From assembly GCA_964366905.1 (NCBI GenBank), contig CAYIVQ010000001.1, positions 1 through 45,156 on the forward strand: a stretch of 45,156 nucleotides of DNA. The letters are read 5' to 3'. The position numbers and the translations under genes were made by a program. Origin of the DNA: an uncultured Candidatus Saccharibacteria bacterium. Lineage in GTDB: Bacteria > Patescibacteriota > Minisyncoccia > GWC2-36-17 > WO2-46-25. Positions 3,486-45,156 of this stretch are shown here, in pieces. The notes beneath the pieces were generated by a model. That model was given only the letters and a program-made list of their open reading frames with translations. It made no database searches and had not been told where the DNA came from. Each line of letters opens with the position of its first letter. The stretch's first letter is position 1.

Positions 3486-5774
3486 TTATTCAAAATGAAT
3501 TTTTGCGTTAAATCGCGCAAGATAATTTTTCAGTTTCGGATGGCGGGTTAGTTCCGAGTCTTCTTTAAGCAATTGTATTGCTTCTTCGCGCGCTTCTTTT
3601 ATTAAAATTTTGTTAGTGAGCGACGCCATGGTTAAATCCGGCAGACCGGATTGGCGAGTGCCGAGAAAATCCCCCGGCCCTCTGATTTCCAAATCCTTTT
3701 CCGCGAGCTCAAACCCGTTCTGGCAATTTATTAATGCTTTCAGCCGTCTGCTATTTGCCAATGTCGTATTTTCCGCGAATAAAAGGCAGTATGATTGATA
3801 TTCTCCTCGGCCCACTCTGCCTCTGAATTGATGAAGTTGCGCCAAACCGAAATGCTCCGCCCCTTCAATAAGCATCAAAACGGCATTTGGCACATCAATG
3901 CCGACTTCTATGACTGAAGTTGAAACTAAAATATTGAAGCGATTGGCCTTGAATTCCTTCATGATCCGCTCTTTTTCTTGCGGCTTCATTTTGCCGTGCA
4001 ACATTTCTATTTTCAGATCGGGGAAAATTTCACTGGAAAGTTTTTGATATTCTTCTTTGACAGTTTTGACTTCTTTTTTAAGCAATTCTTGCTGATATGT
4101 TTTTTCGCTTTTGATTTTTGAATCTTCCTGCGCGTCTATTCTCGGACAAATCACAAATGCTTGCCTGCCTTTTCTAATCTCTTCGCGAACAAAATCATAA
4201 GCAGACGTTCGTTCTGAAGGAGTTATTATTTTTGTAACAATATTTTTACGATTTTTCGGCATCTCATTAAGCAAAGAAATATCCAAATCGCCGTATAACG
4301 TGAGAGTGAGAGTGCGCGGTATCGGAGTGGCAGTCATTGATAAAAGATGGGGCATCAGACCGCTTACCGTTTTATATCTTTGCAAAAGTTCAGCCCGCTG
4401 ATTAACACCAAAACGATGCTGTTCATCAAGCACGATAAGTCCTAAGGAAGGGAAAGAGACTTTTTCTGAAATTAGCGCGTGAGTTCCAGTAGTAATTAAA
4501 AGCTTTTTGGACGTTAGCTGATTTAAAAATTCCTGTTTTTTCAGCTTATATTCCGACTTAACTTCAGAATCAAATATTTCAGCGCTGTTGCCGGTAAGCA
4601 GACCGACATTAAAGCCAAATTCGGCAACCATACTGCTTAAAGTATGAAAATGCTGGCGGGCAAGCACTTCGGTTGGCGCCATTATGGCAATTTGGCGGCC
4701 TTTAGAAGCCGCGTTTAACGCGGCAATCGCCGCCACGACCGTTTTACCGGATCCAACATCGCCTTCAAGCAAGCGATTCATCGGGATATTTTTTGACATA
4801 TCCTGTAAAATTTCCCACGCGGCCTTGCGTTGAGAATCAGTCAGCGTGAAAGAAAGAGAAGCGACGAATTTTTTTGTTTTTTCTATGTCAAAAGGTATCG
4901 GTGGCGCGGCAGATTTTTTTATTTTTCGTCTTGCTTTCAGTATAATCAGTTGAATGAGAAGCAATTCTTCAAAAGCCAGCCGTCTTTTCGCTTCTTTCAC
5001 TTCATCAGTATTTTCAGGAAAATGAATTTTTAAAATAGCGGAGCTTATGGGAAGCAGATTATGCTTCTTTATGATTTCTTGCGGGAGAATCTCTTCCATT
5101 TGCGCGGCTTGCCCGTCATACGGCGAGTGCTCCCGTTTTGTCCAAGAGCTTTGCGATTGGCGCACAAAACGCAGTCCAGCGAGGCTTTTGCCGAGTCGTG
5201 GCTCCGCTTTCTCCGTTCGCGGGTTGCCGATCGCGTTTTTCACCAGGAATCTGATCCAACGAGAAGTAATGCCCGCGGTTTCACGATATATCGGCACCAA
5301 TCCTCCAGTATGCGTATGTTCGGAAGTCGAACTTTCAAATATTCTTTCATAAGCGGGATTTTGCAAATATAAAGAGTTGCCGTAAGAAACCGCCTTTCCG
5401 GCCAAATTCACTAAACTGCCGATTTTCAGATTTCGAATCAAAAACGGCTGGTTGAACCACACTGCTTTTATCATGCCGCTTTCATCTGAAACTTCCGCTT
5501 CAGTAACATACATATTTTTTTTCCATGTCCGTTTGTTCGTTATTTTATCTATTTTCGCGCGAATAGTCGCAGTTTCACCAGGAGTCAATTCGGCTATATT
5601 TACAATTTTTGAGAAATCATCATATCGAAATGGAATATGCCGCAAAAGATCATAAACAGTATGAATGCCCAAAACTTTAAGTGGTTTGACAATCTTATAG
5701 TTGACTCCTTTTAACTTTTCTATCGGGTCGGATAAACCGATATTTTTTATATGAGTTTTACCTATCATAAACAA
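3486..5774 (-). CDS. recG: ATP-dependent DNA helicase RecG
   Basis: 762 aa. N-terminal wedge region (HIPFRYDD), Walker A GDVGSGKT, DEQHRFG box, C-terminal helicase motifs (QLHQFRGRVGRG), TRG-like end. Confidence 0.93.
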   Translation of the reverse strand: MFMIGKTHIKNIGLSDPIEKLKGVNYKIVKPLKVLGIHTVYDLLRHIPFRYDDFSKIVNIAELTPGETATIRAKIDKITNKRTWKKNMYVTEAEVSDESGMIKAVWFNQPFLIRNLKIGSLVNLAGKAVSYGNSLYLQNPAYERIFESSTSEHTHTGGLVPIYRETAGITSRWIRFLVKNAIGNPRTEKAEPRLGKSLAGLRFVRQSQSSWTKREHSPYDGQAAQMEEILPQEIIKKHNLLPISSAILKIHFPENTDEVKEAKRRLAFEELLLIQLIILKARRKIKKSAAPPIPFDIEKTKKFVASLSFTLTDSQRKAAWEILQDMSKNIPMNRLLEGDVGSGKTVVAAIAALNAASKGRQIAIMAPTEVLARQHFHTLSSMVAEFGFNVGLLTGNSAEIFDSEVKSEYKLKKQEFLNQLTSKKLLITTGTHALISEKVSFPSLGLIVLDEQHRFGVNQRAELLQRYKTVSGLMPHLLSMTATPIPRTLTLTLYGDLDISLLNEMPKNRKNIVTKIITPSERTSAYDFVREEIRKGRQAFVICPRIDAQEDSKIKSEKTYQQELLKKEVKTVKEEYQKLSSEIFPDLKIEMLHGKMKPQEKERIMKEFKANRFNILVSTSVIEVGIDVPNAVLMLIEGAEHFGLAQLHQFRGRVGRGEYQSYCLLFAENTTLANSRRLKALINCQNGFELAEKDLEIRGPGDFLGTRQSGLPDLTMASLTNKILIKEAREEAIQLLKEDSELTRHPKLKNYLARFNAKIHFE
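5112..5228 (-). repeat. intragenic GC-rich repeat, 114-nt long form, in recG
   Basis: Read on the recG strand as (G)NPRTEKAEPRLGKSLAGLRFVRQSQSSWTKREHSPYDG. The 72-nt internal segment is identical to that at 24330-24401. Confidence 0.85.
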
Positions 5775-18733: not shown

Positions 18734-19300
18734 ATGAAAAAGCAAATAGAGCTTAATGCTAAAAAAGTTGAATATACCCTGAAAGTGAGCAAGCGGGCGC
18801 GAATGATGCGGCTGACTGTTTATTGCGGAGGCGATTTTGTGGTGACGGCTCCGCAAAGCGTAGGAGAAAATGTTATTGAGCAGTTTATCATTAAAAAATC
18901 ACAGTGGGTTATTGATAAGATAAATTATTTAAAACAGTTTCCCGCCGGAACTTTTACAAAAAGTAATCGGGGAGATTTTTTAAAACACAAAGATGTCGCG
19001 TTGAAGCTGGCGGAGAGGCAGATAGAATATTTTAATGATTTTTATAAACTCAAGTTTAATAAGATAAATATAAGAAATCAAAAAACTCGCTGGGGCAGCT
19101 GTTCTAAAAAAGGTAATTTGAATTTTAATTACAAAATCGTACTACTACCGCAACAACTCGCCGACTATATTATTGTCCATGAATTATGCCATCTTGGTGA
19201 ATTTAATCACTCTAAAAGATTTTGGAATCTGGTCGCCAAAATGATCCCAAACTATCAAGAGATGAGAAATGAGTTGAGGAAAAACAGAATTAGTTTATGA
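18734..19300 (+). CDS. M48/YgjP-like (DUF45) metal-dependent hydrolase
   Basis: RWGSCSKKGNLNFNYKIVLLPQQLADYIIVHELCHLGEFNHSKRFW (HExxH). Confidence 0.8.
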   Translation: MKKQIELNAKKVEYTLKVSKRARMMRLTVYCGGDFVVTAPQSVGENVIEQFIIKKSQWVIDKINYLKQFPAGTFTKSNRGDFLKHKDVALKLAERQIEYFNDFYKLKFNKINIRNQKTRWGSCSKKGNLNFNYKIVLLPQQLADYIIVHELCHLGEFNHSKRFWNLVAKMIPNYQEMRNELRKNRISL

Positions 19301-19572
19301 ACTATTTCGTCTATATTCTCAAATGTGCTGATGATACTCTTTATGTCGGCTCTACTAATGATTTGGCAAAGAGGATTATTCAACATAATACGGCAAAGGC
19401 GGGGGCGCATTACACAAAAATCCGGCGGCCGGTGGAGCTGGTATATTCGGAAACTGTGGAAACTCTTTCAAGGGCGCTCAAGCGAGAAGCTGAAATTAAA
19501 CTCTGGCGCAGGGATAAGAAAATAAAACTCATTCAACCCGCGAACACAGAGAGCGGAGCAGTCGCCGTATGA
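19297..19572 (+). CDS. GIY-YIG nuclease-family protein (UPF0213-like)
   Basis: YFVYILKCADDTLYVGSTNDLAKRIIQH...REAEIK. The last 11 codons and the stop come from the intragenic repeat. Confidence 0.85.
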   Translation: MNYFVYILKCADDTLYVGSTNDLAKRIIQHNTAKAGAHYTKIRRPVELVYSETVETLSRALKREAEIKLWRRDKKIKLIQPANTESGAVAV

Positions 19573-19576
19573 CGGC
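19535..19576 (+). repeat. intragenic GC-rich repeat, 42-nt unit, supplying the GIY-YIG C-terminus and TGA
   Basis: AACCCGCGAACACAGAGAGCGGAGCAGTCGCCGTATGACGGC. Read in its third frame (ANTESGAVAV*), with TGA at 19570-19572. Confidence 0.85.
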
Positions 19577-23493: not shown

Positions 23494-24933
23494 CTATAAA
23501 ATATTTTTGCTTGCCGCGGTGCCGGCAACGAATCCGGTGGTCCAGCAGAGTTGGAGCGAATAGCCGCCGGATGGGCGGTCAATGTTGAGCATATCTCCGA
23601 TGATATAAAGATTGGGGAAAAGGCGCGAACGCATCGTCTTTGGATCAATTTCCTCAAGCGAAACTCCACCGCTAGTAATGACGGCTTTGTCCGCACCGAG
23701 AAGTTTGTCCGCGCGCATCGGCAGGTTTTTCAGGCAAGCGATTAATTTCATTCGCTCCTCGCGCGTGATGCTATTTACTACTGTTTCCGGATTGATTTTG
23801 CACTTCGCGATAATAATGGGAGCGAGAGCGGATGGAATAATGCTGTCCAATGAATTCCTGATTTTTTTATTGCTATGTTTTTTAAATAGATCTTTCAGCG
23901 CAATATCAAGCTGTTCGTTATTTAATGATGGGAGAATATCAAGCGACATAACCACTTCTCCGCTTTTTAAAAGTTCGCCGATTGCCTTGCTCATATGCAA
24001 TACCGCGGGTCCGCTGATACCGAAATGGGTAAAAAGAATTTTTCCTCTATTTGTATTATGAACGATTTCATTTTGAATAGCGTTGATTTTTACATCCGCA
24101 ATGCTGACGCCGGAAAGTTGTTTTGCCCATGAGTCTTTTATGGCAACCGGCACAAGCGAAGGAGTGGGTATAGCGATATTATGCCCGAGCTTTTTTAGCC
24201 ACGCAAAGCCATCTCCCGCAGATCCGGTTTCCGGGTGAGAGCCTCCGCCGGCGGCAACAATGATCGCGTTGGCATGGATTTCTTTACCGTCGCGCAATAT
24301 TACGCCAGTTGCCGTCATACGACGACTGCTCCCGTTTTGTCCAAGAGCTTTGCGATTGGCGCACAAAACGCAGTCCAGCGAGGCTTTTGCCGAGTCGTGG
24401 CTCCGCTCTCTGCGTTCGCGGGTTGCCATCATACGGTGACTGCTCCGCTCTCTGCGTTCGCGGGTTGCCTTTGGCATAGACGCGCGGGAAACAATGATAT
24501 CACTAACAGGAGAATCGGATATTACCGTTACTCCGCCTTCGCGCATATATTTCACTAACACATCCCATACCGATCTCGCGCTGTCGCTGGCGGGGAAAAC
24601 CCGCTGTTCATTTTCTATTTTAGTCGCCATCCCGCGAGTATTGAAAAAGTTGAGAGTATCTTGAACGCTCCATTGCGAAAAAGCAGAAAAAAGAAATTTG
24701 CCGTCGTCTTTAAATTTTTCCAAGAATTTTCGCGTATTAAATTCCGCGTTGGTGAGATTGCATCTGCCTCCGCCGGTGATCAAAAGCTTTTTGCCAAGCG
24801 TATCATTTTTTTCAATCAACGCCACGCGCGCTCCGCATTCAGCCGCCCGCCCGGCCGCCATCATCCCCGCAGACCCTCCGCCGATGACAATGACATCCCA
24901 TATGTTATCCGTTTTTGATTTCATATAATTCAT
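23494..24933 (-). CDS. HI0933/BaiN-like FAD-dependent oxidoreductase
   Basis: WDVIVIGGGSAGMMAA, LITGGGRCNLTN, C-terminal GGYSLQLCWTTG. Interrupted in frame by 156 nt of repeat. Confidence 0.85.
   Translation of the reverse strand: MNYMKSKTDNIWDVIVIGGGSAGMMAAGRAAECGARVALIEKNDTLGKKLLITGGGRCNLTNAEFNTRKFLEKFKDDGKFLFSAFSQWSVQDTLNFFNTRGMATKIENEQRVFPASDSARSVWDVLVKYMREGGVTVISDSPVSDIIVSRASMPKATRERRERSSHRMMATRERRERSHDSAKASLDCVLCANRKALGQNGSSRRMTATGVILRDGKEIHANAIIVAAGGGSHPETGSAGDGFAWLKKLGHNIAIPTPSLVPVAIKDSWAKQLSGVSIADVKINAIQNEIVHNTNRGKILFTHFGISGPAVLHMSKAIGELLKSGEVVMSLDILPSLNNEQLDIALKDLFKKHSNKKIRNSLDSIIPSALAPIIIAKCKINPETVVNSITREERMKLIACLKNLPMRADKLLGADKAVITSGGVSLEEIDPKTMRSRLFPNLYIIGDMLNIDRPSGGYSLQLCWTTGFVAGTAASKNIL
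24311..24469 (-). repeat. intragenic GC-rich repeat, tandem 114-nt + 42-nt units
   Basis: 24311-24424 (long) and 24425-24466 (short), plus GCC. Translated on the gene strand in the alternative frame as ATRERRERSSHRMM-ATRERRERSHDSAKASLDCVLCANRKALGQNGSSRRMT. Confidence 0.9.
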
Positions 24934-25012: not shown

Positions 25013-26041
25013 ATGACAAAAGGATTTTGGGAAAAAGATAAGTCGCTTTTCACGCTTGCGCCAATGGCGGACGTGACGGACGCGGCATTCCGGCAAATTA
25101 TTGCCAAATACAGCAGGCCTTATGGCCCCGACGCAATATGGACGGAATTTGTTTCCTGTGACGGCTTGTGTTCTGACGGCAAAGACGCACTGATGCATAA
25201 TCTCTGGTTCACGGAAGTCGAGCGCCCGATTGTGGCGCAATTTTTCGGATCCAAGCCGGATAATTTTTACCGGTGCGCTTTGCTTGCTCAAGAACTCGGT
25301 TTTGACGGCATTGATATCAATATGGGATGTCCGGATAAAAAAGTTGAAAAACAGAATGCCGGCGCGGCGCTGATGCGCAATCATGAATTGGCTCAAAAAA
25401 TAATCATTGAAACGAAGCGTGGAGCGGGAAATCTGCCTGTGTCTGTTAAAACCCGCATCGGGTACGATTCCGATATTTTAGACGAATGGCTGCCAAGATT
25501 GCTTGAAACGGAACCGGACGCCATCACAATTCACGCGCGCACGCGCAAAGAAATGTCTTTAGTGCCAGCTCGCTGGGAAGCGATAGCGCGAGCGGTAGAA
25601 ATCGCACGCCGATATGATTCTTCGCCGAATCGCGCGCTGATTATAGGAAACGGAGATATCGTGAGCATGATAGACGCGGAAGAAAAAGTGCGGCAATCAG
25701 GCGCGGACGGCGCGATGATAGGGCGGGGGATTTTCGGCAACCCATGGTTTTTTAATAGAGAAAAAGATATAAACACAATAAGCATTGAAGAAAAATTATT
25801 AGTGCTGATTGAACACGCTTTTTTGTTTGAAAAATTATTTGCCGGCAACCCGCGAACAGAGAGAGCGGAGCAGTCGTCGTATGACGGCATAAAAAGTTTT
25901 AGCGTAATGAAAAAGCATTTTAAAGCGTATGTGAGCGGATTTGACGGGGCCAAAGATTTGCGAATTAAACTAATGGCCGCGCGCGACGCCAACGACGTCG
26001 CGCAAATCGTAGAAAAATATCGTGCTTTTTTTGTAAAGTAA
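25013..26041 (+). CDS. tRNA-dihydrouridine synthase
   Basis: LAPMADVTDAAFR, DGIDINMGCP, ITIHARTR, GNGDI, IGRG. Confidence 0.9.
   Translation: MTKGFWEKDKSLFTLAPMADVTDAAFRQIIAKYSRPYGPDAIWTEFVSCDGLCSDGKDALMHNLWFTEVERPIVAQFFGSKPDNFYRCALLAQELGFDGIDINMGCPDKKVEKQNAGAALMRNHELAQKIIIETKRGAGNLPVSVKTRIGYDSDILDEWLPRLLETEPDAITIHARTRKEMSLVPARWEAIARAVEIARRYDSSPNRALIIGNGDIVSMIDAEEKVRQSGADGAMIGRGIFGNPWFFNREKDINTISIEEKLLVLIEHAFLFEKLFAGNPRTERAEQSSYDGIKSFSVMKKHFKAYVSGFDGAKDLRIKLMAARDANDVAQIVEKYRAFFVK
25847..25888 (+). repeat. intragenic GC-rich repeat, 42-nt unit, in dus
   Basis: AACCCGCGAACAGAGAGAGCGGAGCAGTCGTCGTATGACGGC read as NPRTERAEQSSYDG. Confidence 0.85.
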
Positions 26042-28565: not shown

Positions 28566-30416
28566 ATGAAAAAAACCGGTCCGACAATCAGAATATTGGA
28601 ATTGTTCAAAAGCCGAAAGAAAGCGGTTCTGATAATGGCGGTTTTTATCACGGCCTCGACAGGACTTGATTTGTCCGTGCCTCTTATTTCTCAAAAACTG
28701 ATTGACAGGCTTATTGAATTTTTCAAAACAGGCGGAGCGCCGCCATTTGGTTTTCTTTTTATATCTGCAATCGGTATTTTAGCTGCTACCATCTTGAGTC
28801 GCGTCTTCAGTTCGCTTTATAATTACAATCTTTTTAAAACCGTGACTCAAGTGGAAGATGAGGCAAGACATGCGGCTTTTGAAAAATATTTGCGTTTGCA
28901 CGCTCTATTTCATCACAAATCATCAAGCGGCCAAATTATCGGCAGGATTGAGCGGGGCGGCGGGGCAATTTACGCAATCGCGCATGATATTTTCGGCCAC
29001 AATCTCATACCGCCGCTAATAGTGTTTATCAGCACATTGGGAGTGCTTTTATTTAAAAATCCATTTATCGCTTTGGTAGTATTCGTGCCATTTCCTCTTT
29101 ACCTTTTAACCATACGGCGGCTTACCGATAAAATATATAATATTGAGAAAGTGGTTAACGAGCAATTTGAAGATGTATCTAAAGAAGCGTATGACGTGGC
29201 CGGCAATGTGCTGACCGTCAAAAAATTCGCTGAAGAGAACGCGGAAGCTGCTAAGCAAAAAAGATTGATGGATAAAGCGAGGCTGACGCAATACGGAGCT
29301 GAACAGCTTTGGAATGTATTAGAAAATATCCAAACATTATTCGCGACCTTAGGTAGAATAGCGGTTATTATTTTGGGAGGCTTTCTAGTCTTGAAAGGTA
29401 TGAGCACTATCGGCGAATTTGTATTGTTCGTTTCCCTTCAAAATATGGTGTATTCTCCTTTAGTGAAATTATCAATCGTATTTCCTCGCTTGCGACGCAA
29501 CACAGCCCGCGCGGAGCGTTTATTTGATATAATAGATGAACCTATCAGCGTTACCGACAAGCTGGACGCGAAAACGCTGCCTCCGCTGGAAAATTCAATT
29601 ATATTCCACGATGTTTCATTCCGCTATGGCAACCCGCAAACGCAGAGAGCAGAGCAGTCATCGTATGATGGCCAAGCTCATCAATGGGCTGTACAAAATA
29701 TCAATATTGAAATTCCGGCGCGCGCGACAGTGGCGCTGGTGGGAAGAAGCGGTAGCGGCAAAACCACTTTTATCAATTTATTGCTTCGCTCATACGACCC
29801 GACAGAAGGAGATATATTGATTGATGGGCAGAATCTGAAGGATGTTAAACGCGAAAGTTTGCTTAAGCAAGTAGCTGTAGTTCCGCAAGAGGTAGATCTC
29901 TTTTCCCGCTCTATTTTAGGCAATATCGCGTACGGGAAGCCGGAAGTAAGTCGTGAAGAAGTCATTCAGGCGGCAAAGACCGCTCTCGCGCATGACTTTA
30001 TTATGAAAACAGAGAATAGATATGATACTATAGTAGGGGAACGAGGCATGAAGCTTTCCGGAGGCGAACGCCAGCGGATCGGAATCGCGCGGGCTGTATT
30101 GCGCGACCCGAAAATCCTGATTTTAGACGAAGCTACCAGCCATTTAGATACCGAAAGCGAACAACTAATCTCTCAAGCAACAGACGATTTAGTAAAAAAC
30201 AGGACAACTATTATCATCGCGCATCGCCTCTCCACAGTTTTAAACGCTGATATGATTTTAGTGTTCAATGATGGAAAAATTGAAGCAAGCGGAAAACACA
30301 ATGAATTATTGAAAACAAGCGCCACATATCAAAAACTTTATTCTTTGCAGTTCCGCGATAACGACAACCCGCGAACACAGAGAGCGGAGCAGTCGCCGTA
30401 TGACGACAAATCTTAA
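28566..30416 (+). CDS. ABC exporter, fused permease/ATPase (MsbA-like)
   Basis: Six-TM N-terminal half. NBD with GRSGSGKTT, LSGGERQRIGIARA, ILILDEATSHLD. Confidence 0.92.
   Translation: MKKTGPTIRILELFKSRKKAVLIMAVFITASTGLDLSVPLISQKLIDRLIEFFKTGGAPPFGFLFISAIGILAATILSRVFSSLYNYNLFKTVTQVEDEARHAAFEKYLRLHALFHHKSSSGQIIGRIERGGGAIYAIAHDIFGHNLIPPLIVFISTLGVLLFKNPFIALVVFVPFPLYLLTIRRLTDKIYNIEKVVNEQFEDVSKEAYDVAGNVLTVKKFAEENAEAAKQKRLMDKARLTQYGAEQLWNVLENIQTLFATLGRIAVIILGGFLVLKGMSTIGEFVLFVSLQNMVYSPLVKLSIVFPRLRRNTARAERLFDIIDEPISVTDKLDAKTLPPLENSIIFHDVSFRYGNPQTQRAEQSSYDGQAHQWAVQNINIEIPARATVALVGRSGSGKTTFINLLLRSYDPTEGDILIDGQNLKDVKRESLLKQVAVVPQEVDLFSRSILGNIAYGKPEVSREEVIQAAKTALAHDFIMKTENRYDTIVGERGMKLSGGERQRIGIARAVLRDPKILILDEATSHLDTESEQLISQATDDLVKNRTTIIIAHRLSTVLNADMILVFNDGKIEASGKHNELLKTSATYQKLYSLQFRDNDNPRTQRAEQSPYDDKS
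29631..29672 (+). repeat. intragenic GC-rich repeat, 42-nt unit, in the ABC exporter NBD
   Basis: AACCCGCAAACGCAGAGAGCAGAGCAGTCATCGTATGATGGC read as NPQTQRAEQSSYDG, between FRYG and the Walker A strand. Confidence 0.85.
30366..30407 (+). repeat. intragenic GC-rich repeat, 42-nt unit, forming the ABC exporter C-terminal tail
   Basis: AACCCGCGAACACAGAGAGCGGAGCAGTCGCCGTATGACGAC read as NPRTQRAEQSPYDD, 3 codons before the stop. Confidence 0.85.
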
Positions 30417-30428
30417 AAAAATAAATTT

Positions 30429-31391
30429 ATGCTTATAGACGATATCACAATCAAAATAAAGGCGGGAAACGGCGGGAGAGGGGCGGTCGCGTTCAATAAG
30501 AACATGATGTCTCTCGGTCCGGTCGGAGGAGACGGCGGAAACGGCGGGAGTGTTTACTTTGAAGGCGTTTCTGATTTAAGCGCGTTATCGCAATTCAGAA
30601 ATCAAAAAGAATTTGAGACTGAAAACGGAGAAAACGGCAGGGGACAATCCATGGACGGCGCCGACGGGAAAGATCTAACGCTAAAAATCCCCGTGGGGAC
30701 TGTTATATATAATCTTGAAACAGGGAATACCCAAGAAATAATAAAAACTCATGAAAGAATTTTAGCGGCGCAAGGCGGACGCGGAGGGAAAGGAAATTTT
30801 AAATTTAGATCGGCTACAAATAGAAGCCCGCAACAATTCCAGGAAGGCAAGGAAGGGGAAGTGTTTGCCATTCGGCTCGAACTGAAGCTTATTGCCGATG
30901 TGGGGCTTATCGGCTTGCCTAACGCGGGGAAATCCAGCTTGATCAACGAACTTACAAACGCGAAAAGCAAAGTGGCGAATTATCCTTTCACAACGCTTGA
31001 ACCAAGTCTGGGAGTATATTATGAATTGATACTGGCCGATATCCCGGGCCTTATCGAAGGCGCGTCAACAGGAAAAGGACTCGGGATAAAATTCCTCCAG
31101 CACATCGAACGGACAAAAATTCTTTTTCATCTGATTTCCGCCGAATCGGAAAATCTTGCCGGTGATTATAGAGTTATCAGAAAAGAACTGGAAAGCTACA
31201 GCAAAGAGCTTGCGGAAAAACCGGAGTATCTGTTTTTAACCAAAAGCGATATGACAACTCCAGCGGAAATAAAGAAAAAAATAATCGCTTTAAAAAAATT
31301 GAATAAAAATATCGTCGCCATCTCCATCCATGATGAAGACGCTCTGGAAAAAGTCAAAGTAATCCTGAACAAAATAAAGGAGGAGAAATAG
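30429..31391 (+). CDS. obg: GTPase Obg
   Basis: Glycine-rich Obg fold (GNGGRGAVAF, GGDGGNGGSV), GLPNAGKSS, DIPGLIEGA, TKSD. Confidence 0.95.
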   Translation: MLIDDITIKIKAGNGGRGAVAFNKNMMSLGPVGGDGGNGGSVYFEGVSDLSALSQFRNQKEFETENGENGRGQSMDGADGKDLTLKIPVGTVIYNLETGNTQEIIKTHERILAAQGGRGGKGNFKFRSATNRSPQQFQEGKEGEVFAIRLELKLIADVGLIGLPNAGKSSLINELTNAKSKVANYPFTTLEPSLGVYYELILADIPGLIEGASTGKGLGIKFLQHIERTKILFHLISAESENLAGDYRVIRKELESYSKELAEKPEYLFLTKSDMTTPAEIKKKIIALKKLNKNIVAISIHDEDALEKVKVILNKIKEEK

Positions 31392-44101: not shown

Positions 44102-45156
44102 TAAGAGTCGGTTTTGAATGCGAACAATTGGAGGGAAATAGGTTTGGAGTGGGGCATACTCTCGCCCAGCTTTTGGAAGTGTTCGCGCAAATTCCGGAGA
44201 TAGAAAAACAATTCCGGTTTGTTTTACATTTCAAAAAAGAAATCCCGAAAGATAATTTTTTATCGCATCCGGTTTTTGAAAAAAGAATTTTAACAGGAGG
44301 GATAATCCCGCCCAGTTTTAATGTTTTCTATCATATCCTTATTCCGATTGCGTATTGGCGCGATAAACTAGACTTATACTTTTTCCCTTCATACATGCTA
44401 CCGGCGTTTTTTGTCGGCAAATCTATCGTTGTGCTGACCAATGATGTTTATTGGGAAGCGCATCATAGCAATCTTCCATTCAAATACCGCTTAGCTTACA
44501 GATTATTTTGCTGGTGGGCGGCAAAACGAGCCGATAAGATTTTGACTATTTCGGAATTTTCCGCCAGTGAATTGCGAAAGTTTTATAATATTTCCCGCGA
44601 AAAAATCTTTGTGAACTCATGGGGATTGGAAAAAATATTTCAAGAACTACCTAAAGACGAAAAATATCTCTCGGAAATTCAAAAAATTAAAATCCAATTT
44701 GGCATTGAGAATAAATTCTTCCTTTCCATTGGTCAAGCGTTCCCGCGCAGACATATTAAAGAAGCAATGCTCGCGTTCGCTTCAATCGCGAATCAATATT
44801 CGGACACGCAATATCTTGTCACCGCTACTGACAAATATGAACCGCCTATATTGGAGAATTTAGTCAAAGAAATCAACCAAAAAGCCGGCAGACGAGCGAT
44901 TATTTACGTCAAATATCTTGATCGAAAAATATTGCCGCATTTGATGAACGAAACGCTCGCGCTGATTTACGTTTCCGATAAAGAAGCGCTCGGCCTGCCG
45001 CCGCTTGAAGCGCTCGCTTGCGGCCGTCCGGCGATCGTGAAAGACAACGAGATCTCGCGCGAACTTTTCGGCGAGCAAGGATATTTCGTTGCAGATACAA
45101 ACAACCCGCGAACGCAGAGAGCGGAGCAGTCACCGTATGATGGCAACCCGCGAACG
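44098..45156 (+). CDS. GT4 (GT-B fold) glycosyltransferase, 3' end beyond the window
   Basis: Not in the ORF track because no stop is reached. ATG at 44098 overlaps the upstream TGA. My own translation gives MIRVGFECEQLEGNRFGVGH...SDKEALGLPPLEALACGRPAIV (E-x7-E type motif), then runs into the 42-nt repeats. Confidence 0.78.
   Translation, partial: MIRVGFECEQLEGNRFGVGHTLAQLLEVFAQIPEIEKQFRFVLHFKKEIPKDNFLSHPVFEKRILTGGIIPPSFNVFYHILIPIAYWRDKLDLYFFPSYMLPAFFVGKSIVVLTNDVYWEAHHSNLPFKYRLAYRLFCWWAAKRADKILTISEFSASELRKFYNISREKIFVNSWGLEKIFQELPKDEKYLSEIQKIKIQFGIENKFFLSIGQAFPRRHIKEAMLAFASIANQYSDTQYLVTATDKYEPPILENLVKEINQKAGRRAIIYVKYLDRKILPHLMNETLALIYVSDKEALGLPPLEALACGRPAIVKDNEISRELFGEQGYFVADTNNPRTQRAEQSPYDGNPRT
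45103..45156 (+). repeat. intragenic GC-rich repeat, tandem units (second truncated by the window edge)
   Basis: 45103-45144 is AACCCGCGAACGCAGAGAGCGGAGCAGTCACCGTATGATGGC. It restarts at 45145. Read as NPRTQRAEQSPYDG-NPRT. Confidence 0.85.

What the first reader, a model, noticed from the sequence alone, without database searches (positions are those of the whole stretch)
29631..30407. One ABC exporter gene carries two separate copies of the repeat, one in a nucleotide-binding-domain loop and one as a C-terminal tail
Copy 29631-29672 sits between the first beta-strand of the NBD (IIFHDVSFRYG) and the strand leading to Walker A (WAVQNINIEIPARATVALVGRSGSGKTT). This is a position where ABC NBDs normally have only a few residues. 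Copy 30366-30407 extends the C-terminus (…LQFRDND-NPRTQRAEQSPYDD-KS*). Two independent hits in one 1.85-kb gene, both in the NPRT frame and both co-oriented, argue for a high insertion density or for some preference among host genes.
Basis: partly seen in the sequence, partly recalled or inferred. Interest (0 to 1): 0.6.

Follow-up and report, generated by a model that had tools for sequence, protein, structure and literature searches.

The report
Mobile 42-base repeat inside transporter gene
One working ABC exporter gene of an ultra-small groundwater bacterium (Patescibacteria) has been hit twice by a 42-base hairpin-bearing repeat that is scattered through the genome; both copies keep the reading frame and probably add floppy 14-residue stretches, so this is a clean example of "selfish DNA inside genes", apparently not described for this group.

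Summary
ORF 28566-30416 is an intact ABC exporter. It carries two 42-nt repeat copies, at 29631-29672 and 30366-30407.

- **Real insertions.** Three syntenic orthologues (84-92% identical) lack exactly these 14 codons at both sites.
- **Position.** Copy 1 sits in the beta1-beta2 turn just after the invariant A-loop tyrosine. That turn is 6 residues long in 93 of 109 homologues. Copy 2 sits two codons before the stop.
- **Structure.** AlphaFold2 gives both inserts pLDDT below 50, with the domain unchanged relative to an insert-free orthologue.
- **Selection.** The gene is under strong purifying selection (dN/dS 0.07).
- **Independence.** The copies differ at 7 of 42 positions, and each is closer to copies elsewhere in the genome.

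The repeat occupies about 47 sites in this 864-kb genome, in unrelated housekeeping genes. It uses several frames and both orientations, so the NPRT frame is not universal. It inserts at GGC^AA without target duplication and has two hairpins supported by compensatory changes.

At this density about 1.4 double-hit genes are expected, so the double hit itself is ordinary. There is no gene-class preference, only mild over-dispersion.

The closest analogues are Rickettsia RPEs and intragenic REPs. The mobilising enzyme is unknown.

The parts
28566..30416 (+). Host gene: a half-size ABC exporter (transmembrane domain plus nucleotide-binding domain), 616 aa, intact.
   Evidence: Pfam PF00664 (E 6e-24) and PF00005 (E 5e-33). 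All catalytic motifs are invariant in a 109-sequence alignment. The AlphaFold2 model matches ABCB10, Atm1, TM287/288 and MsbA at TM 0.77-0.85. dN/dS against orthologues is 0.07.
29625..29630 (+). TAT GGC, encoding the A-loop tyrosine Y354 and G355. This is the left flank and target of insertion 1.
   Evidence: Y354 is invariant in 109 homologues. The empty site in the orthologues reads TAT GGT|CAA (L001) and TAC GGT|CAA (L003).
29631..29672 (+). Repeat copy 1 (NPQTQRAEQSSYDG), in the beta1-beta2 turn of the nucleotide-binding domain. It is a somewhat decayed copy.
   Evidence: It is absent, as exactly 14 codons, from orthologues P0001-P0004 / L001, L003. pLDDT is below 50 over residues 356-371, between strands E344-353 and E374-384. 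It differs at 2 positions from the nearest copy elsewhere. G8A and G21A break hairpin 1.
29742..29765 (+). Walker A motif (GRSGSGKT, residues 393-400). It now lies 39 residues after Y354 instead of 25.
   Evidence: Alignment; coordinates from the translation.
30366..30407 (+). Repeat copy 2 (NPRTQRAEQSPYDD), inserted two codons before the stop. It lengthens the C-terminal tail and ends 22 nt upstream of the obg start codon.
   Evidence: The orthologues end ...LQFRDNDKS*. The empty site is AAC GAC|AAA TCT TAA in L001 and L002. pLDDT is below 50 over residues 598-616. It differs at 1 position from the copy at 19535.
30429..31391 (+). Downstream gene obg (a GTPase). The same gene order is seen at the orthologous loci.
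   Evidence: ORF list. The order RNase R - ABC - Obg recurs in L001 and L002.
25847..25888 (+). Another copy of the repeat, in the dus-like gene upstream. This one is shared with the related strain.
   Evidence: Contig L001 begins inside a copy at the orthologous position. That strain therefore has the family but has empty ABC sites.
19535..19576 (+). Another copy, in the stop-containing frame at the 3' end of a small ORF. Its TGA ends that ORF.
   Evidence: ORF 19297-19572 ends at the element's TGA.
24311..24466 (-). Tandem array of a 42-nt copy and a 114-nt long form, in a minus-strand gene and read in the +1 (TRERRER) frame.
5113..5226 (-).
45103..45156 (+). Tandem copies at the end of the contig. 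The assembly breaks inside the repeat.

Best explanation
The two segments are separate insertions of a 42-nt non-autonomous element into a functional ABC exporter gene. The element is GC-rich, carries two hairpins, and is spreading, or spread recently, in this Patescibacteria lineage.

**Shown**
- Both copies are precise 42-nt gains relative to syntenic orthologues.
- They come from different sequence variants of a family with about 47 sites in this genome.
- The family inserts between GGC and AA without duplicating the target.
- Its two hairpins are kept by compensatory changes.
- The host gene remains under strong purifying selection.

**Inferred**
- The element is transcribed and translated with the gene. 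It then adds a polar, disordered 14-residue loop straight after the A-loop tyrosine and a 14-residue extension of the C-terminal tail.
- Both places tolerate extra residues, so the insertions are near-neutral and survive.
- Insertions in the stop frame or the hydrophobic reverse frame are purged.
- Spread depends on an enzyme supplied in trans that recognises the hairpins and a target resembling the element's own head-to-tail junction (GGC^AAC). That would also explain the head-to-tail tandem arrays. The enzyme is not identified.
For: **Insertion**
- Orthologues at 84-92% identity, in the same RNase R - ABC - Obg order, lack exactly 14 codons at both sites.
- One of those strains has the family elsewhere.

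**Independence**
- The two copies differ at 7 of 42 positions. Their nearest copies elsewhere differ at 2 and 1 positions.

**Family**
- 47 full copies in 864 kb.
- 27 copies in one related Azambacteria MAG, and none in 39 other relatives.
- Also present in Yanofskybacteria and other Patescibacteria MAGs.
- Hosts are unrelated housekeeping genes.

**Target**
- The flank logo is GGC^AA, with no duplication of the target.
- The right flank extends to AACC more often than expected (P = 5e-4).
- Tandem neighbours differ by up to 9 of 42 positions, so they are adjacent insertions rather than slippage.

**Hairpins**
- Pair 30-39 is G-C in 37 distinct copies and A-U in 14. Both changes are synonymous in the NPRT frame.
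- Pair 5-21 has one double change. No shuffle out of 500 reached the observed covariation.

**Translation and selection**
- All forms are multiples of 3 in length (42, 114, and the nested 72).
- The stop frame holds 0 copies against 3.8 expected, and the hydrophobic reverse frame holds 2 against 10.
- The only stop-frame copy ends an ORF (19535).
- The only copy with a 1-nt indel lies outside long ORFs.

**Tolerance in the exporter**
- Both inserts have pLDDT below 50, with flanking strands intact.
- The secondary structure is the same as in insert-free orthologue P0005.
- 9 of 109 homologues have unrelated 14-20-residue expansions in the same turn.
- dN/dS is 0.07.
Against: - There is no RNA or protein evidence that the inserts are expressed as peptide.
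- Hairpin energies are no better than those of shuffled sequence, so the structure rests on covariation at essentially one strongly varying pair.
- No mobilising enzyme is linked to the element. Y1 (HUH) transposase and reverse-transcriptase genes are present, but they also occur in element-free relatives, and none is flanked by the element.
- Gene calls are crude longest-ORF calls, so frame counts carry some error.
- Insertion next to the A-loop could impair ATP binding, and the dN/dS value averages over the whole lineage rather than only the period since insertion.
- This is a draft MAG of 79 contigs that break at repeats, so copy counts are lower bounds.
Confidence: 0.72

Rival explanations
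1. The element is not translated. The ribosome hops from the codon before it to the identical codon at its end (GGC...GGC at site 1, GAC...GAC at site 2), as in phage T4 gene 60 or the yeast mitochondrial byp elements. Alternatively, the 42 nt are removed from the mRNA. Either way the native exporter is made.
For: - At both ABC sites the codon before the element equals its last codon.
- The element is a GC-rich hairpin-bearing insert in an AT-rich genome (GC 41%).
- Compensatory changes show selection on nucleic-acid structure rather than on peptide sequence.
Against: - Matching end codons occur in only 24 of 47 copies. Most of those are just the GGC consensus, and only 1 of about 20 non-GGC flanks matches.
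- All forms are multiples of 3 in length. Stop-frame and hydrophobic-frame insertions are depleted. That pattern is expected only if the insert is translated.
- No stop or rare codon follows the take-off position.
- There is no Rfam match.
Confidence: 0.05
2. The 14-residue peptide is a functional module that the cell adds to many proteins, for example a docking, modification or degradation tag. The exporter would then carry two such tags for a regulatory purpose.
For: - Half of all copies are in the NPRT frame, more than target availability predicts (23 against 14 expected, P = 0.005).
- AGA-to-CGA changes in variant copies keep the arginine.
- The insert places a second S-Y-D-G next to the native R-Y-G. 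phmmer aligns that second tyrosine with the A-loop tyrosine of human ABCB1.
Against: - 9 copies are read in the +1 frame and 8 in the reverse orientation, inside conserved housekeeping genes, giving unrelated peptides.
- Close orthologues work without the insert.
- The distribution among relatives is patchy, 2 of 41 genomes.
- The peptide is predicted to be disordered.
- The conserved feature is base pairing maintained through synonymous changes.
Confidence: 0.07
3. The exporter gene is decaying. The insertion beside the A-loop has disabled ATP binding, and the gene is a young pseudogene that merely still looks intact.
For: - Insert 1 moves the invariant tyrosine from 25 to 39 residues before Walker A.
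- Copy 1 has itself begun to decay.
- The orthologous gene in L001 is called as two ORFs.
Against: - The 616-codon frame is open, and all invariant motifs are intact.
- dN/dS is 0.07 over dS of 0.6-1.3.
- 9 homologues carry natural 14-20-residue expansions in the same turn.
- AlphaFold2 keeps the fold.
- The same element sits in clearly essential genes such as ArgRS, SerRS, TopA, YidC and ATP synthase.
Confidence: 0.08
4. The two segments are assembly artefacts: repeat-induced chimeras in a metagenome-assembled genome.
For: - Contigs of this MAG and of L001 break inside copies of the repeat.
- Reads could not be inspected.
Against: - Both flanks of each copy are colinear with the orthologous gene, base for base, and in frame.
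- A chimera would join unrelated flanks.
- The two copies have private substitutions.
Confidence: 0.02

Closest known systems
Rickettsia palindromic elements (RPEs; Ogata et al. 2000, as summarised in PMC10969869)
   Same: Both are non-coding repeats inserted many times, in frame, into unrelated housekeeping genes of a reduced genome. In both cases they add peptide segments at positions compatible with the fold, and the transposase is unknown.
   Different: - RPE-1 is about 100-150 bp and palindromic over its whole length. This element is 42 nt with two short hairpins.
- It forms head-to-tail arrays.
- It has modular long forms (114 nt).
- It lives in Patescibacteria.
- Sequence similarity to RPEs was not tested.
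Intragenic REPs of the GTAG and CGTC super-families (Di Nocera et al. 2013, PMC3733652)
   Same: - Both are short (20-40 bp) stem-loop repeats.
- Some REPs lie inside ORFs, and some ORFs are hit twice.
- Many hosts are DNA repair genes.
- CGTC REPs likewise lack a dedicated transposase.
   Different: - This element has no unpaired GTAG or CGTC tag.
- Its stems are 4 and 6 bp, against 8-9 bp for CGTC REPs.
- REPs are mostly extragenic and form head-to-head dimers. This element is mostly genic, in an 86% coding genome, and forms only head-to-tail arrays.
- No RAYT gene is flanked by it.
[quoted passage not shown]
   Same: Both are small non-autonomous elements that can make in-frame fusions when they land in genes.
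   Different: This element has no terminal inverted repeats, no target-site duplication and no parent IS. It is also several-fold shorter than typical MITEs.
[quoted passage not shown]
   Same: Both are repeats that stay open in several frames, are spread by horizontal transfer, and are translated as part of host proteins.
   Different: PARCELs are 25-residue units in long tandem tracts. They occur in proteins of unknown function, often surface proteins. They are not single 14-residue inserts in conserved enzymes.
Translational bypass elements (T4 gene 60 gap; byp elements of Magnusiomyces mitochondria; from my own knowledge)
   Same: Both are short GC-rich inserts in AT-rich coding sequence. 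At the two ABC sites the insert is flanked by identical codons.
   Different: Bypass elements are not constrained to multiples of 3 and need not be open. Here length and frame use point to ordinary translation.

Membership tests
ABC exporter, type IV fold (host gene) | Transmembrane domain PF00664 fused to nucleotide-binding domain PF00005, with A-loop, Walker A, Q-loop, signature, Walker B and H-loop motifs. | tested here: met
   (both Pfam domains). Y354, GRSGSGKT, VPQE, LSGGERQR, ILILDEATS and AHRLST are invariant or nearly so. TM 0.77-0.85 to ABCB10, Atm1, TM287/288 and MsbA.
Rickettsia palindromic elements | Repeat inserted in frame into many unrelated protein-coding genes. | tested here: met
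Rickettsia palindromic elements | Length of about 100-150 bp with long-range palindromic structure. | tested here: not met
   The unit is 42 nt, with a 4-bp and a 6-bp hairpin. The long form is 114 nt but is a nested composite.
Rickettsia palindromic elements | Sequence homology to the RPE-1 to RPE-10 families. | not tested
   No RPE sequences were compared. Rfam gave no match.
REP (GTAG / CGTC super-families) | Unpaired GTAG or CGTC tag at one end of a single stem-loop. | tested here: not met
   By inspection of the consensus there is no GTAG. CGTC occurs only inside stem 2 of the T31 variants.
REP (GTAG / CGTC super-families) | Predominantly extragenic, arranged as head-to-head dimers. | tested here: not met
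   38 of 47 sites lie inside crude gene calls. All arrays are head-to-tail with a period of 42.
REP (GTAG / CGTC super-families) | RAYT (Y1 transposase) gene flanked by the repeat (a REPtron). | tested here: not met
   PF01797 matches lie on contigs C8 and C12. nhmmer finds no repeat copy on either contig. Similar genes are present in element-free relatives.
MITE | Terminal inverted repeats. | tested here: not met
   The 5' end AACCCGCGAA and the reverse complement of the 3' end, GCCGTCATAC, are unrelated (consensus).
MITE | Target-site duplication of fixed length. | tested here: not met
   Empty and filled sites were compared. Among about 20 copies whose left flank is not GGC, only one matches the element's last 3 nt. 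The logo shows a GGC^AA preference rather than a duplication.
Translational bypass element | Matching take-off and landing codons, with decoding blocked after take-off. | tested here: inconclusive
   Codons match at both ABC sites (GGC/GGC, GAC/GAC) but in only 24 of 47 copies genome-wide. No stop codon follows the take-off position.
Translational bypass element | The protein product lacks the inserted residues. | not testable with these tools
   This needs proteomics.
Diversity-generating retroelement target (variable repeat) | Variation confined to adenines of the template. | tested here: not met
   Variable positions include C11, C13, G15 and G17, whereas A9, A18 and A23 are invariant.

The most novel reading that the evidence does not exclude
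The 42-nt unit would be a new class of ultra-short mobile element. Under this reading it inserts without target duplication into sites that resemble its own head-to-tail junction (GGC^AAC), via a circular or tandem intermediate, using a hairpin-recognising enzyme not yet linked to any repeat family.

In the exporter it would also have duplicated the A-loop motif (R-Y-G ... S-Y-D-G), so either tyrosine could stack on ATP. That would be a ready-made natural experiment on how catalytic domains absorb selfish DNA.
Probability: 0.2. Interest if true: 0.7.

Novelty: new variant of a known kind. Interest (0 to 1): 0.5.

Why it matters
Selfish repeats that live inside genes by staying translatable are known mainly from Rickettsia and a few REP-rich bacteria. 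This finding shows the same strategy in the ultra-small, gene-dense genomes of Patescibacteria, with a much shorter unit.

The exporter is a particularly clean case for four reasons:
- Empty sites are seen in close relatives.
- One insert lies one residue from a catalytic tyrosine and the other at a terminus.
- The fold is predicted to be unchanged.
- The gene is under strong purifying selection.

It gives a concrete system for two questions. The first is how much insertion a conserved ATPase domain tolerates. The second is what enzyme moves a 42-nt hairpin element.

There is also a practical point. These repeats break assemblies and lengthen proteins by 14-residue multiples, which can mislead annotation and alignment of genomes from this group.

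Tried and rejected
1. **Known RNA family.** An Rfam scan at permissive E-values on the long-form locus found nothing.
2. **Fixed 3-nt or 5-nt target-site duplication.** This was suggested by GGC/GGC and GAC/GAC at the two ABC sites. It was rejected genome-wide. Left-flank similarity beyond GGC is not above background (P = 0.35).
3. **DGR-like adenine mutagenesis of the variable stretch.** Rejected, because non-adenine positions vary while several adenines are invariant.
4. **Y1/HUH transposase or reverse transcriptase as the mobiliser.** Both gene types exist in the genome. They also occur in element-free relatives and are not flanked by the repeat.
5. **Phage or viral vector.** There was no match in IMG/VR contigs or GenBank phages.
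6. **Other filled alleles of site 1 in JGI metagenomes.** The single pattern hit (L051) is a chance match in an unrelated GC-rich contig.
7. **Orthologues in family-level reference genomes.** These have only about 50% identical paralogues, so they are uninformative. The informative orthologues came from the protein search.
8. **A wasted search.** My first pattern search of relatives had a one-base length error and returned nothing. It was repeated correctly.
9. **Hairpin energies.** They are not better than shuffles.
11. **Literature.** No paper contains the element or peptide sequence.
Full report
**1. The observation**

ORF 28566-30416 (+, 616 aa) is the only long ORF over the finding. It is a half-size ABC exporter with PF00664 (transmembrane region) and PF00005 (ATPase).

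- Copy 1 at 29631-29672 reads AACCCGCAAACGCAGAGAGCAGAGCAGTCATCGTATGATGGC and encodes NPQTQRAEQSSYDG.
- Copy 2 at 30366-30407 reads AACCCGCGAACACAGAGAGCGGAGCAGTCGCCGTATGACGAC and encodes NPRTQRAEQSPYDD.

A pattern search gives 0 matches in 100 shuffles. The window holds further copies at 5113-5226 (-), 19535 (+), 24311-24466 (-), 25847 (+) and 45103 (+).

**2. Both copies are insertions**

A protein search returned orthologues at 82-89% identity over the searched region and mostly 560-590 aa long. The query is 616 aa, that is 588 + 28.

- In the alignment, the closest four read VSFRY------GQ(V/A/T)(H/N/S)QWA... and end ...LQFR(D/E)NDKS. They lack exactly the two 14-residue segments.
- Their contigs have the same RNase R - ABC - Obg order as the window.
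- At DNA level, empty site 1 is TAT GGT|CAA in L001 (TAC GGT|CAA in L003). The window has TAT GGC[42 nt]CAA.
- Empty site 2 is AAC GAC|AAA TCT TAA. The window has AAC GAC[42 nt]AAA TCT TAA.
- Contig L001 starts inside a copy orthologous to the window's copy at 25847. That strain therefore has the family but has empty ABC sites.
- A junction-specific scan of JGI metagenome contigs found no other filled allele. The one hit was a chance match.

**3. The two copies are independent**

They differ at 7 of 42 positions. Copy 1 is 2 changes from a copy on contig C6, and copy 2 is 1 change from the copy at 19535. The host gene has diverged from its orthologues by dS 0.6-1.3. That is far more than the elements differ from their nearest relatives, so both insertions postdate the split from those strains.

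**4. Where the copies sit in the protein**

- Y354 is invariant in 109 homologues. It is the aromatic A-loop residue that stacks on the adenine of ATP. This is established knowledge of ABC ATPases, not something tested here.
- Between Y354 and the next conserved strand there are 6 residues in 93 of 109 homologues.
- Nine homologues have unrelated polar expansions to 14-20 residues in this turn, and none has an NPRTQ-like sequence.
- C-terminal tails after LQF are 2-4 residues in 78 of 109 homologues, against 20 here.
- AlphaFold2 on the native protein (mean pLDDT 82) gives strands 344-353 and 374-384 at high confidence. pLDDT is below 50 only for residues 356-371 and 598-616, plus two short loops seen in all models.
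- The model matches ABCB10, Atm1, TM287/288 and MsbA at TM 0.77-0.85.
- The insert-free orthologue P0005 gives the same elements, with strands 344-353 and 360-370 joined by a 6-residue turn and no low-confidence stretch there.
- dN/dS against three orthologues is 0.07.

One detail deserves mention. The element ends in S-Y-D-G and was inserted after R-Y-G, so the motif is duplicated. phmmer aligns the element's tyrosine (Y367) with the A-loop Y401 of human ABCB1. Which tyrosine is used is open.

**5. The repeat family**

*Copy number and hosts*
- The genome (864 kb, 79 contigs, GC 41%) has 47 full copies and 56 nhmmer hits. These include 114-nt long forms in which 72 nt are nested between GGAGC repeats.
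- Hosts, as named from Pfam domain matches, include topoisomerase I, ArgRS, SerRS, an ATP synthase subunit, ThiI, TsaE, YidC, PilM, CCA-adding enzyme, Mfd, a methylpurine glycosylase, aldolase and a glycosyltransferase.
- There is no functional class preference, although DNA repair genes are the multi-hit ones.

*Frame and orientation*
- Using crude gene calls, 23 copies are co-oriented in the NPRT frame, 9 are co-oriented in the +1 frame (TRERRERSSRRMT), 8 are in the opposite orientation, 7 lie outside genes, and none is in the stop-containing frame.

*Target*
- Flanks show GGC before the element (C in 39 of 41 copies) and AA after it (A in 32 of 40).
- This is the same sequence as the element's own end|start junction (GGC|AAC).
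- There is no real target duplication.
- The right flank matches AACC or longer in 5 of 24 cases, against 2.8% of background sites (P = 5e-4). Left-flank similarity beyond GGC is not significant.
- GGCAA sites fall in the NPRT-equivalent frame 30% of the time, because GGC is a common in-frame glycine codon.

*Selection*
- NPRT frame: 23 copies against 14 expected (P = 0.005).
- Stop frame: 0 against 3.8 (P = 0.02).
- Hydrophobic reverse frame AVIRRLLRSLCSRV: 2 against 10 (P = 0.001).
- Co-orientation: 32 of 40 against 56% expected (P = 0.001).
- The single stop-frame copy (19535) supplies the stop codon of a small ORF. The single copy with a 1-nt indel (C2:42033) lies outside long ORFs.

With all lengths being multiples of 3, this argues that the inserts are translated and filtered by selection on the peptide.

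**6. Nucleic-acid structure**

- Across 54 distinct copies from this and other genomes, pair 30-39 is G-C in 37 copies and A-U in 14, with 3 exceptions. The adjacent position 31 varies freely.
- Both changes (TCG/TCA and GAC/GAT) are synonymous in the NPRT frame.
- Pair 5-21 shows one double change, and G41A turns a U-G pair into U-A.
- No shuffle out of 500 reached the observed covariation.

The element therefore has two hairpins. H1 pairs positions 4-7 with 19-22 and has a variable loop. H2 pairs 27-32 with 37-42 and has a GTAT loop. Predicted energies are weak and no better than shuffles. Copy 1 in the exporter has lost H1 through G8A and G21A and is probably no longer mobile. Copy 2 keeps both hairpins, and its terminal GAC improves pair 28-41.

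**7. Density and the double hit**

- There are 47 sites, or 1 per ~19 kb. 38 lie in 689 crude genes, which is 0.051 per kb of coding sequence.
- Random placement gives 1.4 genes with two or more sites, and P(at least one such gene) = 0.78.
- Four are observed: the exporter, the glycosylase with 3 sites, Mfd with 4 sites, and one more (P = 0.04). P(any gene reaching 4 sites) = 0.002.
- Adjacent sites within 1 kb number 7 against 2.1 expected (P = 0.004).
- Both ABC copies being in the NPRT frame has a probability of about 0.33, given the genic frequencies.

The exporter's double hit is what this density predicts. The genome as a whole shows mild clustering.

**8. Distribution and mobility**

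- Of 41 relatives, only the window's genome and one same-family genome carry the element (27 copies). That genome's coordinates match the Azambacteria MAG JACQDT01. Another species of that genus has none.
- Exact matches also occur in Yanofskybacteria and other Patescibacteria MAGs.
- None occurs in viral contigs or phage records.
- Tandem neighbours differ by up to 9 of 42 positions. Some arrays therefore arose by insertion next to an existing copy, as expected if the element's own junction is a good target.
- Y1 transposase and reverse-transcriptase genes are present, but they also occur in element-free relatives and are not flanked by the repeat. The mobiliser is unknown.

**9. Comparison with known elements**

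- RPEs are the classic in-frame selfish repeats (PMC10969869).
- Di Nocera et al. (PMC3733652) describe intragenic REPs. Their examples include ORFs hit twice and a bias toward repair genes. Their CGTC REPs have no dedicated transposase.
- This element shares the life-style but fails the defining features of RPE-1 (length, palindrome), tagged REPs (tag, stem length, head-to-head dimers, RAYT linkage) and MITEs (inverted repeats, target duplication).
- No paper in the library contains its sequence.

I file it as a new variant of a known kind.

**10. Limits**

- Gene calls are longest-ORF approximations.
- The genome is a draft MAG whose contigs break at the repeat.

Noticed in passing
G000 C39:3-2228 (Mfd), C24:297-1076 (methylpurine DNA glycosylase), window 3486-5774 (762-aa ORF): The genes hit most often by the repeat are DNA repair genes. 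Mfd has 4 sites and the glycosylase has 3 sites with 4 copies. The same bias was reported for intragenic REPs in other phyla (PMC3733652).
   Followed up: partly
window 19535-19576: This copy is in the stop-containing frame, and its TGA terminates ORF 19297-19572. It is the only stop-frame insertion found, and it sits at a gene's 3' end.
   Followed up: partly
G000 C2:42033-42075: A 43-nt copy with a 1-nt insertion (GAGCCGGAGC) lies outside any long ORF. This is consistent with selection against frameshifting copies inside genes.
   Followed up: no
L001:3610-5376: In the related strain, the orthologous exporter is called as two ORFs (222 aa and 354 aa). This could be a frameshift, a pseudogene or an assembly error.
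   Followed up: no
L001:160-1059 versus window 26019-26021: The related strain has about 900 bp more, including a 209-aa DHO_dh-family gene, between the dus-like gene and RNase R. The window lacks this stretch.
   Followed up: no
G000 C8:11850-12750: Two adjacent ORFs both match the Y1 (IS200/RAYT-type) transposase family. One covers the full length of the profile (E 4e-16). No repeat copy lies on that contig.
   Followed up: partly
window 45103-45156 and L001:1-29: Contigs of this genome and of a related metagenome assembly end inside copies of the repeat. The element breaks short-read assemblies, and copy numbers are underestimates.
   Followed up: no
homologues P0018, P0029, P0032, P0052, P0053, P0059, P0103 (alignment A3): Several Patescibacteria exporters have unrelated polar 14-20-residue expansions in the same beta1-beta2 turn after the A-loop tyrosine. 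This turn is a recurrent site of length variation.
   Followed up: partly
window 24311-24466 and 5113-5226; G000 C39:1815-1928: The nested 72-nt insert of the long form has its own stem (CGTTTTGT / ACAAAACG). The C39 copy shows two compensatory double changes in it (CTGTTTGT / ACAAACAG).
   Followed up: partly
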